From assembly GCA_951406725.2 (NCBI GenBank), contig OX597817.1, positions 171,802,001 through 171,866,000 of the forward strand: a stretch of 64,000 nucleotides of DNA, read 5' to 3'. The position numbers and the translations under genes are program-made. Shown piece after piece: positions 14,691-63,934 of the stretch (position 1 is the stretch's first letter; each line of letters starts with the position of its first letter). The notes beneath the pieces were generated by a model, which was not told the DNA's origin, made no database searches, and saw only the letters and a program-made list of their open reading frames with translations. This stretch comes from Octopus vulgaris. Lineage: Eukaryota.

Positions 14691-15553
14691 CAGTGGCTCT
14701 CAACCAGGGTTCATGTGACCTTTTGGTGGTCCATATGAACAAAATAGTAAATTGGGGATCCACTGAAATATTTCAAGGGTTCTACGCAAGTGAAGATGTG
14801 AAAAGCAAAATAGGGAATTTGAAAGAAATAACTATTAAAGTAGTTTTTAAACATCGACTGGCAGCAGAGGCCTACCAAAATTAAATAGTAAATTTGGGAT
14901 TCACAGTAATAGTTTAAGGGCCAATGAAAGTATTTTGCTTTTGATGAAGCATGTTCTCTCAGTGAGTGCTATTGCAAACTTACACAAGTGAATGAACGAG
15001 AAACAAAATAGGAATTTTGAAAGCTGTATCTATAAAACTAGTTTATAAACATATATATAGGTGCAGGAGTGGCTGTGTGGTAAGTAGCTTGCTAACCAAC
15101 CACATGGTTCCAGGGTTCAGTCCCACTGCGTGGCATCTTGGGCAAGTGTCTTCTGCTATAGCCCCGGGCTGACCAATGCCTTGTGAGTGGATTTGGTAGA
15201 CGGAAACTGAAAGAAGCCTGTCGTATATATGTATATATATATATATGTGTGTGTGTATATGTTTGTGTGTCTGTGTTTGTCCCCCTAGCATTGCTTGACA
15301 ACCGATGCTGGTGTGTTTATGTCCCCGTCACTTAGCGGTTCGGCAAAAGAGACCGATAGAATAAGTACTAGGCTTACTAAGACTAAGTCTCGGGGTCGAT
15401 TTGCTCGACTAAACGTGGTGCTCCAGCATGGCCGCAGTCAAATGACTGAAACAAGTAAAAGAGTAACAGAGTAAGAGAATAGCAATGAAGGTCCAGCAGA
15501 ATAAAATAACAATCAAAGGGGTTCATAGGTAAAGCAATGATTAAAAGCCACTA
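14691..15553. mobile_element. Old hAT-like MITE interrupted by a SINE A
   Basis: Left end CAGTGGCTCTCAACC; right end GATTAAAAGCCACTA (degenerate inverse). No clean 8-bp TSD. Confidence 0.4.
15060..15477 (+). mobile_element. Full-length bipartite tRNA-derived SINE family A (CORE-like head, internal microsatellite, 3' module)
   Basis: A box TGGCTGTGTGG, B box GGTTCAGTCCC, CTTGGGCAAGTG CORE-like motif, (TA)n(TG)n linker, (AAAGAGT)n tail. Confidence 0.9.
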
Positions 15554-18121: not shown

Positions 18122-18520
18122 GTGCAGGAGTGGCTGTGTGGTAAGTAGCTTGTTTACCAACCACATGGTTCCGGGTTCAGTCCCACTGCGTGGCACCTTG
18201 GGCAAGTGTCTTCTACTATAGCCTCGGACCGACCAAAGCCTTGTAAGTGGATTTGGTAGACAGAAACTGAAAGAAGCCCGTTGTATATATGTATATATAT
18301 ATGCGTGTGTGTGTTTGTGTGTCTGTGTTTGTCCCCCTAGCATTGCTTGACAACCGATGCTGGTGTGTTTATGTCCCCGTTACTTAGCGGTTCAGCAAAA
18401 GAGACCGATAGAATAAGTACTGGGCTTACAAAAGAATAAGTCCTGGGGGTCGAGTTGTTCGATTAAAGGCGGTGCTTCAGCATGGCCACAGTCAAATGAC
18501 TGAAACAAGTATAAAAAAAA
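18122..18520 (+). mobile_element. SINE family A, full length
   Basis: Head, microsatellite and tail as at 15060. Confidence 0.9.
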
Positions 18521-29205: not shown

Positions 29206-29613
29206 TACTCTTTTTACTCTCTCTCTTTTACTTGTTTCAGTCATTTGACTGCGGCCATGCTGGAGCACCGCCTTTAGTCGAGCAAATCAACCCCGGGACT
29301 TATTCTTTGTAAGCCTAGTACTTATTCTATCGGTCTCTTTTGCCGAACCGCTAAGTGACGGGGACGTAAACACACCAGCATCAGTTGTCAAGCAATGCTA
29401 GGGGGACAAACACACACACACAAACACACACACATATATATATATATATACATATATACGACAGGCTTCTTTCAGTTTCCATCTACCAAATCCACTCACA
29501 TTGGTCGGCCCAGGGCTATAGCAGAAGACACTTGCCCAAGATGCCACGCAGTGGGACTAAACCCGGAACCATGTGGCTGGTTAGCAAGCTACTTACCACA
29601 CAGCCACTCCTGC
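29206..29613 (-). mobile_element. SINE family A, full length
   Basis: Reverse complement of the 15060 copy. Confidence 0.9.
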
Positions 29614-33424: not shown

Positions 33425-34505
33425 ATTCTTTTATTCTTTTACTTGTTTCAGTCATTTGACTGTGGCCATGCTGGAGCACCGTCTTTAGTTGAACAAATTG
33501 ACCCCAGAACTTATTGTTTGTTAGCCTAGTACTTATTCTATCAGTCTCTTATCTGAACTGCTAAGTTACAAGGATGTAAACATATCCACATCAGTTGTCA
33601 AGCGATGTTGGGGGACAAACAGACACACAAACATATACACACCCATACATACATACATGCATATACATAGGAGTGGCTGTGTGGTAAGTAGCTTGCTAAC
33701 CAACCACATGGTTCCGGGTTCAGTCCCACTGCGTGGCATCTTGGGCAAGTGTCTTCTGTTTTAGCCCCGGGCCGACCAATGCCTTGTGAGTGGATTTGGT
33801 AGACGGAAACTGAAAGAAGCCTGTCGTATATATGTATATATATATATGTATGTGTGTTTGTTTGTGTGTGTGTGTTTGTCCCCCTAGCATTGCTTGACAA
33901 CCGATGCTGGTGTGTTTACGTCCCCATCACTTAGCGGTTTGGCAAAAAAGACAGATAGAATAAGTACTAGGCTTCCGAAGAATAAGTGCCGGGGTCGATT
34001 TGCTCGACTAAAGGCGGTGCTCCAGCATGGCCGCAGTCAAATGACTGAAACAAGTAAAAGAGATACATATATATATAATCTATATATATATATATATATA
34101 TATGCACACACACAACAGGCTTCTTTCAAATTCCATCTACCAAATCCACTTACAAGGCTGTGGTCGGCCCGAGGCTATAGTAGAAGACACTTGCCCAAGG
34201 TGCCATGCAGTGGGAATGAACCCAGAAGCATGTGGTTGGTAAGCAAGCTACTTACCACACAGCCACTCCTGCACCTAATACACATATTTATCTTTTATCT
34301 TTTACTTTTTTTAGTCATTTGACTGTGACCATGCTGCAGCACCACCTTGAAGGGTTTTAGTCAAATGAATCAAGCCCAGCACCTATTTTTTTTTTAAAGC
34401 TTGGTTCTTATTTTGTCAGTCTTTTTGTCAAACCGTTTAGTTACAGGGATGTAAACAAACCAACAGCAATTGTCAAGTGGTGGTGAGGGAAAAACACAAA
34501 CATAG
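33425..34505. mobile_element. Cluster of SINE A modules in alternating orientation
   Basis: Minus tail 33425-33630; plus full copy 33669-34062; minus head 34114-34276; minus tail 34290-34505. Confidence 0.85.
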
Positions 34506-36589: not shown

Positions 36590-37004
36590 TACTCTTTACT
36601 CTTTTACTCTTTTACTTGTTTCAGTCATTTGTCTGTGACCATGCTGGAGCACTGCCTTTAGTCGAGCAAATCGACCCCGGGACTTATTCTTTGTAAGCCT
36701 AGGACTTATTCTATCAGTCTCTTTTGCCAAACAGCTAAGTTACGGGGATGTAAATAAACCAGCATCAGTTGTCAAGTGATGTTGGGGGGACAAACACAGA
36801 CACAAACATATACACATACGTACATATATATACATATATACGACGGGCTTCTTTCAGTTTCCATCTACCAAATCCACTCACAAGGCTTTGGTTGACCCAA
36901 GGCTATAGTAGAAGACACTTGCCCAAGGTGCCACACAGTGGGACTGAATCCGGAACCATGTGGTTGGTAAGCAAGCTACTTACCACACAGCCACTCCTAC
37001 ACCT
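36590..37004 (-). mobile_element. SINE family A, full length
   Basis: Reverse complement of the 15060 copy. Confidence 0.9.
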
Positions 37005-37029
37005 ATAAGCAATGAAATTCTGGAAATAA

Positions 37030-41759: not shown

Positions 41760-42583
41760 TTTTATCTTTTGCCTGTTTCAGCCATTAGACTGTGGCCATG
41801 CTGGGGCACCACCTTGAAAGGTTTAGCTGAACAAATCAACCCCAGTACTTATTTTTTGAGCCTGTCTTTTTTTTCTTTTTTACCAAACTTCTGCTTTAGG
41901 GGGATGTAAATGCACCAACACCAGTTGTCAAGTTGCAGTGGGGGACAAACACACACACACACACACACACACACGCGTGCGCGTGCACACACACATGTAC
42001 AACAGGTTTCTTTCAGTTTCTGTCTGCCAAATCCACTCACATGGCTTTGGTCGACCCAAGGCTATAGTAAAAAGCACTTACCCAAGGTGCTACACAGTTG
42101 GACTGACACCAGAACCTGGCGGTCTTCTTACCACACAACCACACACTATGCATTTCTCCCATGGGGACAAGACAACGGTGCACAGTAAAATTTGTTTTTC
42201 ACAACCTGCATCACTACTTGGTCTGCCAACTTCAGATGAAAGATACTCTTTTACTTGTTTCAGTCATGTGACTGTGGCCATGCTGGAGCACCTAGTACAT
42301 ATTCTATCAGTCTCTTTTGCCGAACTGCTAAGTTACGGTGACATAAACACACCAGCATTGGTTGTCAAGTGATGTTGGGGGGACAAACACAGATATACAT
42401 ATATATATATACATATATACGAGAGGCTTCTTTCAGTTTCCTTCTACCATATCCACTCACAAGGCTTTGGTCGGCCTGAGGCTATAATAGAAGACACTTG
42501 CCCAAGGTTCCACACTGTGGGACGGAACCTGGAACCATGTGGTTCGTAAGCAAGCTACTTACCACACAGCCACTCCTACGCCT
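41760..42583 (-). mobile_element. Two SINE A copies (41760-42145, 42245-42583)
   Basis: Reverse-complement matches to the A head and tail; the second has an internal deletion. Confidence 0.85.
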
Positions 42584-43877
42584 AGTATAGATGTAACAAT
42601 TAAATGTTTTCTAAGTTGTCTCTGTTAACTCATTACTATCACCACCACCACCACCACCACCACCACCACCACCACCACCACCACCACCACCACCACCATC
42701 GCCATCATTATCATCACTGCCATTGTTTAATATCCATTTTTTCCCATGGGTTGGACAGAATCTGTAGCAGCAGATTTTCTATGATCAGAAACCTTTCCCA
42801 TTGCCAACCCTCACCTGTTTCCAAGCAAGTTCTGAGTTCAAATTCTGCCATGGTCGATTTTGCCTTTCATCCTTTTGGGGATGATAAAATTAGTACCAGT
42901 TAAACACCAGGGATCATTGTAATCAAGTTATCCCCTTCTCTGAAATTGCTGGCCTTGTGCCAAAATTTGAAACCAACATTTCCTCATAACCAGCCAACTT
43001 TACATAAAAGACTGGAAACCCATTACATGATGGTGCAACTCATTTACAACTATCATACCATGTCAATGCCAGAAGACAGTAACTCTCACACATACACACA
43101 TTACAACAGGTTTCTTTCAGTCTCCATCCTCCAAATCCATCCACAACGCTTTGGTCACTTGAAGACATTTGCCCAAGGTGCCTGCTACACACTGGGACTG
43201 AACACAGAACCATGGGATTAGAAAGCAAACTTCTTACCACGCAGCCAAACCTGTGCCTGTTAATTATGTATAATGAAATTATTAAAAAACATTTCCATCA
43301 TAGAAATATTTTCCATGCATCTGTGCCATACTTCATTTACACACAACTGCAATAAATAAATTCTACTGAAATAAAGAATTACTCTGCCGATGACTTAAAG
43401 ATGGAAACTTTGTAAAAGAAAGACAAAAAATAACAGAAATGTGAATTGCTTTGCAACTAATATGATAGCATGAAAAAAACATGTGGTTACATTATTTTGT
43501 GAATAATTAAAGAATTTACCATTCAATCTAGCCAAATCCTAAAACCTCTAACGACAGAACTGTTTGCTCAAACCAGCTGTACTTAACCAAAAACAAGAAC
43601 AAAATCTCATAAGAAATCAATGTTTTGTTGTTGATTTTTTTTTTGAGTGGATGTTGTTTTTTTATAGTTTGATTATTTTCATCAATTTTTTAACGAATAC
43701 ATCTCATGTAGTATTTTGTGTATTGAAGGGTTAAAGAACAATCCTGAATTCCTGAACTGAAGTGATATTATATCATGTTATGTTGCCAGCCTTCAACATA
43801 AATATCTTAGCATGTACATTGTGCTAGGACTAATGATGAAGAATTCCTTTTATTTTTTATAATTTATTTATAGCTTG

Positions 43878-44293
43878 TCTTTTACTTGTTTCTGTTATTA
43901 GACTGTGGCCATGCTAGAGCACCGCCTTTAGTCAAACAAATCAACTCCAGGACTTATTCTTTGTAAGCTTAGTACTTATTCTATTGGTCCCTTTTGCCAA
44001 ACTGCAAAATAACAAGGACATAAACATACCAGCATCCGTTGTCAAGCGATGGTAGGGGGACAAACACAGGCACACAAACATATACATACATACATATATG
44101 TATATACACACACACACACACACACACACGTGATGGGCTTCTTTCAGTTTCCGTCTACCAAATCCACTCACAAGGCTTTGGTCGGCCTGAAGCTATAGTA
44201 GAAGACACTTGCCCAAGGTGCCACGCAGTGGGACTGAACCTGGAACCATGTGGTTGGTAAGCAAGCTACTCACCACACACCCACTCTTGGGCC

Positions 44294-44324
<31 letters not shown>

Positions 44325-59815: not shown

Positions 59816-59886
59816 ATTTCACTTACAAGATAGTATGTATGTGTGTGTGTGTATGTGTGTGTGTTTGTAATATATAGATATATCTA

Positions 59887-60298
59887 GGTGCAGGAGTGGC
59901 TGTGTGGTAAGTAGCTTGTTTACCAACCACATGATTCTGGGTTCAGTCCCACTGCGTGGCACTTTGGGCAAGTGTCTTCTGCTATAGCCTCAGGCTGACC
60001 AATGCCTTGTGAGTGGATTTGGTAGACGGAAACTGAAAGAAGTCCGTCGTGTATACGTATATATATATATGCGTGTGTGTGTGTTTGTGTGTCTGTGTTT
60101 GTCCCCCTAGCATTGCTTGACAACCGATGCTGGTGTGTTTATGTCCCCATAACTTAGCAGTTCGGCAAAAGTGACCGATAGAATAAGTACTGGGCTTACA
60201 AACGAATAAGTCCCGGGGTTGAGTTGCTTGATTAAAGGCGGTGTGCTCCAGCATGGCCGCAGTCAAATGACTGAAACAAGTAAAAGAGTAAAAGAGTA
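59887..60298 (+). mobile_element. SINE family A, full length
   Basis: Head, microsatellite and (AAAAGAGT)n tail. Confidence 0.9.
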
Positions 60299-61786: not shown

Positions 61787-62607
61787 TTGTATATATCTAT
61801 GCATACATTCATGTTCGTCCCCCACTTCCACTTGACAACTAGTGTTGGTTTGTTTACGTCCCTGCAATTCAATGGCTTGGCATAAGAGACTCATAAATTA
61901 AGTACCGGGATTAAAATGAAAAATAAGTACTTCTCTTGATTCATTTGACAAAAACACCTTTCATGGCCATGCTCCAGCATGGCCACAGTCAAATGACTGT
62001 TACAAGCAAAAGATGAAAAGATATTCCACATTCTACTATTTGAAATGAAGACAGGAGACATGTGAAAATGTGGTGCTTGATATCGAAGAAGAAGGACGGC
62101 TACAGCTGGGAAGCTTTCAATCATAGGGTTGACTAAACAACAACTTGATTAAATTCAATACTTGATCAATATCAATACTTGATCAATATTTGATAAGCCA
62201 GAAGAAATGTTTACAGAGTTACGTTGACATTGCATGGACGTCAAGAAACTGCCTATTACAGTATGCGTACCTATATGTATGAATGTATTTATCTAAATGT
62301 GTATGTGTATATGTATATACATATGACCTTTTGAAAGTATGCATGTATATATGCATACATACATGCATACATACATACATACATACATACATGCATACAT
62401 ATGTAGGCGTAGGAGTGGCCGTGTGATAAGTTGCTTGCTTATGAACCACATGGTTCTGGGTGCAGTCCCACTGCGTGGCACCTTGGGCGAGTGTCTTCTA
62501 CTATAGCCTCGGGCCGACCAAAGCCTTGTGAGTGGATTTGGTAGACGGAAACTGAAAGAAGACCGTCATATATATTTATATATATATATATATATATGTG
62601 TATATAT

Positions 62608-62670
<63 letters not shown>

Positions 62671-62671
<1 letters not shown>

Positions 62672-62916
62672 CATTATTAGTGAATTGAAGAAATGGAGCT
62701 GAACGCAGATTGAACAGAAATCGTTTTATTCCAACGGATTTCCTATTTTCTTCCTGAAGAGAAAGACACAATATGGTCCCATTATTCCATCGGATTTTGG
62801 TAATTTGTGCCTTTCGAAACACGTGTAGAATGAAATAAAACGATTTCTGTTCAAAAAAACGGTTAAACTTTTGATTAATCTACTACAAGATTATTCATCT
62901 TTCTATTTCACATAAT
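62671..62916 (+). mobile_element. Penelope-like terminal fragment in (TA)n with a short inverted 5' copy
   Basis: 21-bp IR 62710-62730 / 62834-62854 around a canonical hammerhead; AATAAA at 62834. Confidence 0.7.
62744..62837 (+). ncRNA. Type-I hammerhead ribozyme, canonical core
   Basis: Stem I TATTTTCTTC/GAATGAAATA; CUGAAGA 62754-62760; stem II GAAAGACACAA/TTGTGCCTTTC; GAAA 62816-62819; stem III ACACGTGT palindrome; GUA triplet ending 62827. Confidence 0.85.
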
Positions 62917-62922
62917 TATATA

Positions 62923-62985
<63 letters not shown>

Positions 62986-63087
62986 CATATATATATAATA
63001 TATATACATATATATATATATAATATATATACATATATATATAATATATATACATATATATATTATATATATATGTATATATATATG

Positions 63088-63127
<40 letters not shown>

Positions 63128-63934
63128 TATGTATGTATGTGTGTGTATATGTTTGTGTGTCCGTGTTTGTTCCCCCAACGTCGCTTGACAACCGATGCTG
63201 GTGTGTTTACGTCCCCATAACTTAGGGGTTCACTTAAAGAGCCCGATAGAATGAGTACTAGGCTGACAAAGAATAAGTTCTGGGATTGATTTGCTTGACT
63301 AAAAGGTGGTGCTCCAGCATGGCCACATTCAAATGACTTAAATGCGTAAAAGAGTATATGTACGTACATACATACATATGTATAAGTGAGGGTAGAATTT
63401 GTAGGTGAGTGTGTCTATGAAAGGTGCTTGAGTACATGCATTTATGTGCATGTGCATATGTCGATTTGTGAATATTTGCATATGCATGAATGTATCTGCC
63501 TCTATATAGTCATTCATCCTGCTAGAAATAGCAACCCCCCAAAAGACACCATCTGTATATCACTACATCCTGTACAACATTCAACTCACTTGGTTTATCT
63601 CTCCTACTACTTTCTGTCTACATATGCATCCACATACAGTCATCTCAAAAGAGAAAGAACATATTAGATGGTGTAGTCCTAGATACACACATGCATCTGT
63701 CTAAAATGTAGACTAACCATTATATAGTAGCCCTGATTCACTGAGCTGACGTGTGGCGAAATAATAACACAATAGCAAGAAAAATATGTAAAAACACAGC
63801 CACACCTATGACTTGTATTAATATGTGTATATATGTAGATTATCACAAAATTATTATTATTAATTTTAAATAATGTGGTATAGTAAATGACATAGATGAG
63901 GAATGGCAATATGGTAGATGTACTTCACTACAAG

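What the first reader, a model, noticed from the sequence alone, without database searches (positions are those of the whole stretch)
62710..62854. Fully canonical hammerhead nested in a SINE's microsatellite, with an upstream antisense copy of its 3' flank
All core nucleotides are present (CUGAAGA, G10.1-C11.1, GAAA, GUA), with a 10-position stem I, an 11-position stem II with a structured insert and a palindromic ACACGUGU stem III. Predicted cut after 62827. The 21-bp inverted repeat overlaps stem I' and the AAUAAA, so it can compete with the ribozyme fold or mask the poly(A) signal. It stops a few nt short of the cut site, as expected if copied from the 3' cleavage product. If it lies in a plus-strand intron it could cut host pre-mRNA.
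Basis: partly seen in the sequence, partly recalled or inferred. Interest (0 to 1): 0.8.

Follow-up and report, generated by a model that had tools for sequence, protein, structure and literature searches.

The report
Truncated Penelope retrotransposon with its hammerhead
The hammerhead is real but belongs to a broken, promoterless scrap of a common Penelope-like retrotransposon sitting inside an older SINE; the inverted repeat is the usual flipped second arm of such insertions, so this copy is likely an ordinary relic and not an RNA switch.

Summary
The hammerhead core, stems and 21-bp inverted repeat are present as described. The 247-bp insert (62670-62916) is one truncated copy of a young 3.6-kb Penelope-like element (PLE) of the Hydra clade. 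A 22-mer from it has 1,646 exact matches in the genome, and intact copies encode an 895-aa RT/GIY-YIG-type protein. The hammerhead is the known pseudo-LTR ribozyme. The 'antisense copy' is a 61-nt inverted, 5'-truncated second arm; only 21 bp pair because the forward arm lacks 138 nt. Arm endpoints are mostly unrelated to the cut: 84 of 100 and 48 of 51 inverted arms run at least 11 nt past it, and breaks at this copy's position (+7 to +9) are at background level. Host-intron cleavage could not be tested; no host exon was found. Family-level side results: a strong 5'-end hotspot 167 nt upstream of the cut, preceded by a non-reference G in 45 of 61 matches (likely a cap signature, implying uncleaved templates); a weak twofold excess of ends exactly at the cut; a roughly 155-nt tail; and a degenerate CxCx5C linker although 103 of 105 free ends abut (TA)n.

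The parts
62403..62566 (+). Head of an older high-copy SINE (host element; boundaries approximate; tRNA-like A/B boxes judged by eye and recall)
   Evidence: 83-92% identical head and tail copies, normally separated by 20-60 nt of (TA)n
62567..62669 (.). Left part of the SINE's (TA)n microsatellite, the insertion target
   Evidence: 103 of 105 free element ends abut (TA)n
62670..62730 (-). Inverted, 5'-truncated short arm of the PLE (element positions +67..+7 from the cut); 62710-62730 is the part that still pairs with 62834-62854
62729..62854 (+). Forward arm, positions -98..+27 of the pseudo-LTR; TT at 62729-62730 is junction microhomology; lacks the putative start site at -167
62744..62837 (+). 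Type-I hammerhead: stem I, CUGAAGA, long stem II with inserted hairpins, GAAA, palindromic stem III, GUA; predicted cut after 62827
   Evidence: variation among held copies 0.33% in the core against 3.2% in the stem II insert (overlapping loci included)
62855..62859 (+). A5 replacing 138 nt (+28..+165) of the element (deletion or template jump)
   Evidence: alignment to the natural copy in L032
62860..62916 (+). End of the long arm (+166..+222), the family's standard long 3' end
   Evidence: 58 of 60 long ends at +220..+222
62917..63139 (.). Right part of the (TA)n/(TG)n microsatellite
63140..63355 (+). Tail of the host SINE

Best explanation
The insert is a doubly truncated, promoterless copy of a young Hydra-clade Penelope-like retrotransposon lying in the (TA)n of an older SINE, and its inverted repeat is the family's standard flipped second arm, likely a by-product of integration and not a regulatory device. 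Shown: a 3,625-nt unit in tandem arrays; an 895-aa ORF with Hydra motifs; the hammerhead 268 nt upstream of the next unit's ATG; head-to-head arms with fixed 3' ends (short +61..+67, long +220..+222) and variable 5' ends; (TA)n targets. Inferred: Pol II starts at an Inr-like CAGT 167 nt upstream of the cut; the RT/endonuclease nicks both strands of (TA)n and starts reverse transcription at two internal sites; the two cDNAs stop prematurely, or at the capped end, and are joined head to head by microhomology. Templates were mostly uncleaved, since most arms run through the cut site. The ribozyme would need a second copy (tandem RNA) or protein help to form stem III, so this single copy is predicted to cleave poorly.
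For: copy number; ORF, tandem unit, two-arm anatomy; 44, 82 with the Hydra definition in PMC8557442 section 11 and its supplement; 102 (look-alike clusters carrying GIY-YIG in 26-50% of members, RVT_1 in 18% of one); 43, 83, 95 (endpoints); 45, 62, 95 (G before -167: 45 of 61 matches; all 15 distinct held G contexts are breaks; G precedes 12 of 53 breaks elsewhere); 77, 88 (folding). Literature: inverted 5'-truncated copy and tail are typical of PLEs; two internal RT start sites, AT-rich cleavage, and a hammerhead dispensable for insertion in vitro (PMC11167929).
Against: No Pfam or PDB sequence hit for the protein, so RT and endonuclease rest on motifs, homologs and atlas leads. The tail is about 155 nt against 30-40 bp in the literature. 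The Hydra linker CxCx5C is degenerate. The start site is inferred from DNA junctions only, and 46 of the 61 matches' contexts were not all inspected. Breaks at +1 are the highest of seven positions tested near the cut (13; p about 0.02-0.03 without allowing for overdispersion).
Confidence: 0.88

Rival explanations
1. The inverted arm of this copy was reverse-transcribed from the hammerhead 3' cleavage product and lost a few 5' nt at joining.
For: 13 breaks exactly at +1 against 2-10 at six controls; 7 of 11 insertions with an arm starting at +1 have the partner arm starting at -1..+3.
Against: This arm starts at +7..+9; +9 has 10 breaks, like -14 (9-10); 84 of 100 and 48 of 51 short arms cross the cut; near-symmetric junctions are common anywhere (22 of 65 pairs within 20 nt); the forward arm of this same insertion contains the uncleaved ribozyme.
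Confidence: 0.12
2. The copy has been co-opted as a regulated ribozyme that cuts a host pre-mRNA, with the IR as an off-switch.
For: Core intact; the IR adds about 4 kcal/mol against the ribozyme fold.
Against: The ribozyme region is identical to the commonest young haplotype, so intactness reflects youth; stem I has predicted probability under 0.002 even without the IR; stem III needs a dimer; metazoan PLE hammerheads cleaved poorly or not at all as monomers (PMC4209133).
Confidence: 0.04
3. The insert is a non-LTR retrozyme monomer or a SINE-specific ribozyme module.
For: Small, non-coding, type-I hammerhead with palindromic stem III.
Against: Copies extend continuously into a 3.6-kb ORF-bearing unit with variable 5' truncation; no short tandem units were seen; most SINE copies lack it.
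Confidence: 0.02

Closest known systems
Hydra-clade EN+ Penelope-like elements, e.g. Hydra-1_Obim and Penelope-13_HM (Craig et al. 2021, PMC8557442)
   Same: Single RT + C-terminal GIY-YIG-type ORF, RW and DKT motifs, CxxC-E-N-CxH end, (TA)n targets, 3' hammerhead; Penelope-13_HM is listed with an inverted 5'-truncated copy.
   Different: 3.6 kb and 895 aa against under about 3 kb; hammerhead sequence differs from all Hydra motifs listed in File S2, including Hydra-1_oBim (compared by eye); much longer stem II; CxCx5C linker degenerate; tail about 155 nt.
Poseidon PAc of Anolis (Frangieh et al. 2024, PMC11167929)
   Same: Two discrete 3' ends, AT-rich targets, hammerhead in the pseudo-LTR, uncleaved RNA as main template.
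   Different: In PAc the ORF starts inside the ribozyme and the tail lies in the ORF; here both ends lie in a 435-nt leader upstream of the ATG.
[quoted passage not shown]
   Same: Palindromic short helix III, large helix II, G10.1-C11.1, mostly solo truncated copies, opposite-strand pairs 100-700 bp apart.
   Different: Helix II here is 11 positions plus a 33-nt structured insert; activity untested.
Drosophila virilis Penelope promoter (Schostak et al. 2008, PMC2377424)
   Same: Internal Inr-type start upstream of the ribozyme region (inferred here).
   Different: No leader intron was detected here (weak data).

Membership tests
EN+ Penelope-like element | Single ORF with RT and C-terminal GIY-YIG endonuclease | tested here: met
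   895-aa ORFs with YRDD and VYQ...YVG; atlas leads; Pfam and PDB gave nothing
EN+ Penelope-like element | Tandem/partial-tandem units forming pseudo-LTRs | tested here: met
   3,625-nt tandem array in L031/L032; 6 tandem junctions
EN+ Penelope-like element | Inverted 5'-truncated copy at the 5' end | tested here: met
EN+ Penelope-like element | Optional tail at one end (30-40 bp in the literature) | tested here: met
   two discrete 3' ends, but about 155 nt apart
EN+ Penelope-like element | Hammerhead in the pseudo-LTR | tested here: met
Hydra clade | RWK and DKT motifs | tested here: met
   RWL variant and SDKT in P0001/P0002; 71 and 89 of 107 homologs carry the motifs
Hydra clade | CxxC and CxH flanking E and N in the endonuclease; no CCHH | tested here: met
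   alignment A1, judged by eye
Hydra clade | CxCx5C linker | tested here: not met
   33 rows read CxS, 5 read CxC, none has the third Cys (overlapping loci included); 80 of 83 complete homologs keep it. Read as a secondary loss
Hydra clade | (TA)n insertion preference | tested here: met
   103 of 105 free ends
Hydra clade | Placement in the RT phylogeny with reference Hydra elements | not tested
   reference proteins were seen only in a supplement and compared by eye
Type-I hammerhead ribozyme | Conserved core and three helices with NUH triplet | tested here: met
   helix III only as a dimer
Type-I hammerhead ribozyme | Match to an Rfam hammerhead model | tested here: not met
   probably due to the long stem II insert (inference)
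Type-I hammerhead ribozyme | Self-cleavage | not testable with these tools
   no raw RNA reads available
Non-LTR retrozyme | Short non-coding tandem units each with a hammerhead | tested here: not met
   the repeat unit is 3.6 kb and coding

The most novel reading that the evidence does not exclude
The junctions of this family record two physical RNA 5' ends: a capped start at -167 (main peak) and the hammerhead's 3' product at +1 (minor peak). That would be genomic evidence that a PLE hammerhead cleaves in vivo on a minority of templates and that both RNAs are reverse-transcribed, in a family that targets (TA)n without the zinc-finger linker proposed to confer that targeting.
Probability: 0.3. 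Interest if true: 0.6.

Novelty: new member of a known kind. Interest (0 to 1): 0.3.

Why it matters
The locus itself is an ordinary relic. The family is useful: it is young, has intact ORFs and roughly 800 or more near-identical insertions, so its junctions can be read as a record of the RNA templates. The role of PLE hammerheads is called unclear in PMC8557442, and PMC11167929 found no RNA reads ending at the cut. Here most templates were uncleaved and some apparently capped, which supports a dispensable or rarely used ribozyme. Loss of the CxCx5C linker with retained (TA)n targeting argues against the linker being required for that targeting. I found no report of a cap-derived G at PLE junctions or of this family in searches; Repbase/Dfam and subscription journals were not searched.

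Tried and rejected
Rfam scans: no hammerhead. Pfam on the ORF and on 6 homologs: nothing at cut-off. PDB by sequence and by profile: nothing. Structure prediction was submitted but had not finished; no fold search was run. Host gene: 149 of 166 candidate non-repeat frames of the window and the next 8 kb, plus one added ORF, gave no Pfam hit at cut-off; this does not exclude a large intron. RNA: no RNA holder on record was listed; only contigs of guessed-RNA runs; laying 4 of 23 runs on the pseudo-LTR/ORF junction showed cover but no splice joint or end cluster, which contigs cannot show reliably. Leader intron: not detected. AATAAA as poly(A) signal: not supported, not tested on RNA. G at -168 as a subfamily SNP: rejected, 0 of 15 held G contexts continue upstream. 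Identity with Hydra-1_Obim: rejected by eye. Symmetric junctions as proof of cleavage: rejected as non-specific. Earlier scan notes: none found.

Full report
Observation. A type-I descriptor finds this motif alone in the 64 kb and finds a hit in 1 of 100 resampled windows. Rfam does not detect it. Stem III is a palindrome that is unstable as a hairpin (+1.4 kcal/mol) and stable as an intermolecular duplex (-10.3). The flanks are the head and tail of a SINE whose other copies are 83-92% identical and carry a short (TA)n between the two parts, so the 247-bp insert (62670-62916) is nested and younger. The host is probably an octopus; this rests on recall of the SINE and on a named Argonauta homolog.

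What the insert is. A search of the own genome gave 1,231 candidates, of which 40 were scored; the 30 returned as loci were 94-100% identical. A 22-mer from the repeat has 1,646 exact matches, typically two per insertion on opposite strands. Long copies form a tandem array with a 3,625-nt unit and two carry uninterrupted 895-aa ORFs. Pfam and PDB searches were blank, but 107 homologs were found and the alignment shows RW, DKT, YRDD, a GIY-YIG-like segment and CxxC-E-N-CxH. These are the features given for the Hydra clade of PLEs in PMC8557442 (section 11 read; supplement parts 1-2 of 59 and passages). Atlas look-alike clusters carry GIY-YIG in 26-50% of members. The family is not Hydra-1_Obim, whose length (2,507 bp) and hammerhead differ (by eye). 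The ribozyme lies 268 nt upstream of the next unit's ATG, i.e. in the pseudo-LTR, as described for PLEs in PMC4209133 (parts 1-2 of 4 read).

The inverted repeat. Insertions have two arms joined head to head, with 3' ends facing outward into (TA)n. In the first 100 listed matches on C1, 51 short ends fall at about +61 to +67 from the cut and 60 long ends mostly at +220 to +222; 103 of the 105 non-tandem ends abut (TA)n (one internal end was set aside). An inverted 5'-truncated copy and a one-sided tail are standard PLE anatomy (passages of PMC8557442). The window copy is such a pair: inverted arm +67..+7 (62670-62730), forward arm -98..+27, then A5 in place of 138 nt, then +166..+222. The IR is 21 bp only because of that gap.

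In 100 further short arms (86 of the first 100 listed of 261 ends of one class, leaving out 14 already held, plus 14 chosen from 116 of another class), 84 start at least 11 nt upstream of the cut, 71 contain the whole antisense ribozyme, 5 start at -10..0, 3 at +1..+10 and 8 further downstream. In the C1 sample the counts are 48, 1, 0 and 2 of 51. Genome-wide probes for breaks at exact positions gave: +1, 13 of 17 matches; +3, 6 of 10; +9, 10 of 18; +14, 6 of 6; +28, 2 of 3; -5, 6 of 7; -14, 10 of 15, or 9 after inspection. +1 is the highest, twice the control mean (p 0.016-0.03), but one of the 13 is an internal deletion, two belong to one insertion, and sites differ in microhomology, so the excess is only suggestive. 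Seven of 11 insertions with an arm at +1 have the partner at -1..+3, but 22 of 65 junction pairs are within 20 nt of symmetric anywhere. The window's own arm is not at +1.

A stronger signal lies at -167, the A of an Inr-like CAGT (motif recalled). There 61 matches lack the reference C; 45 have G, 12 A and 4 T. All 15 distinct G contexts in held loci are breaks, one joined directly to (TA)n, whereas G precedes 12 of 53 breaks at the other positions. [quoted passage not shown] I infer a capped start at -167 and a 435-nt leader containing the ribozyme. The contexts of most of the 61 matches were not inspected.

How it likely works. Transcripts start in the pseudo-LTR. The protein nicks both strands of (TA)n and begins reverse transcription at two internal sites, as shown in vitro for PAc, where hammerhead mutants did not affect insertion and the ribozyme needed the protein to cleave (PMC11167929, parts 1-2 of 4 read). 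The two cDNAs end prematurely or at the cap and are joined through 0-7 nt of microhomology. Subfamily changes avoid the ribozyme core (0.33% against 3.2% in the stem II insert, overlapping loci included), so the motif was likely under selection in the active element. The window copy lacks the start site and the ORF and has one sense ribozyme. The ribozyme fold costs 10.3 kcal/mol in this copy, 5.9 without the inverted arm and 8.2 in the native leader; stem I has probability under 0.002 in all three, and 17 of the 21 IR pairs can coexist with it. Nearest-neighbour models omit tertiary and dimer energy. No host exon was found and RNA data were uninformative, so intronic cleavage is untested.

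Departures from known members. The tail is about 155 nt, not 30-40 bp. The CxCx5C linker, kept by 80 of 83 complete homologs, is degenerate in every held copy that spans it, yet (TA)n targeting is near complete. PMC8557442 linked that linker to (TA)n targeting.

Verdict. A real hammerhead in an ordinary truncated PLE copy; new member of a known clade; the regulatory reading is not supported. Interest 0.3, owed mostly to the family-level junction data. The bioRxiv retrozyme preprint (10.64898/2026.07.22.740005; part 1 of 5 and passages) and passages of PMC6431247 added nothing specific; the preprint's supplements were not seen.

Noticed in passing
G000 family-wide, element position -167 (e.g. 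L009:1696/1700, L022, L144): 5'-end hotspot at the A of an Inr-like CAGT with a non-reference G in 45 of 61 matches: likely cap signature of the PLE start site.
   Followed up: yes
P0001/P0002 residue 742 region; L032, L036: Hydra CxCx5C linker degenerate and preceded by a long Ser/Asn-rich insertion, yet (TA)n targeting persists.
   Followed up: partly
family-wide, positions +61..+67 and +220..+222: Two fixed 3' ends about 155 nt apart, far longer than the 30-40 bp tail described.
   Followed up: partly
family-wide junctions: 22 of 65 head-to-head junctions have both arms truncated within 20 nt of each other, hinting at coupled synthesis or fold-back.
   Followed up: no
element positions -14/-15 (L084, L086, L101, L104, L142, L162): Several arms stop at the base of stem II, possibly RT stalling at the folded ribozyme; 9-10 breaks genome-wide at -14.
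   Followed up: partly
G000:C1:119514150-119526690 (L031, L032): Tandem array of about 3.5 near-identical units with at least one intact ORF; L036, L048, L089 and L111 are other full-length copies.
   Followed up: partly
older subfamily rows: An older subfamily lacks one T in the 5' strand of stem I, which gives a cleaner 3 bp + bulged U + 6 bp helix.
   Followed up: no
window 15058-15464, 18126-18505, 29223-29611, 33668-34062, 36606-37005, 42245-42584, 43878-44295, 59885-60289: Further copies of the same head-(TA)n-tail SINE; about half of the window is repeat-masked.
   Followed up: no
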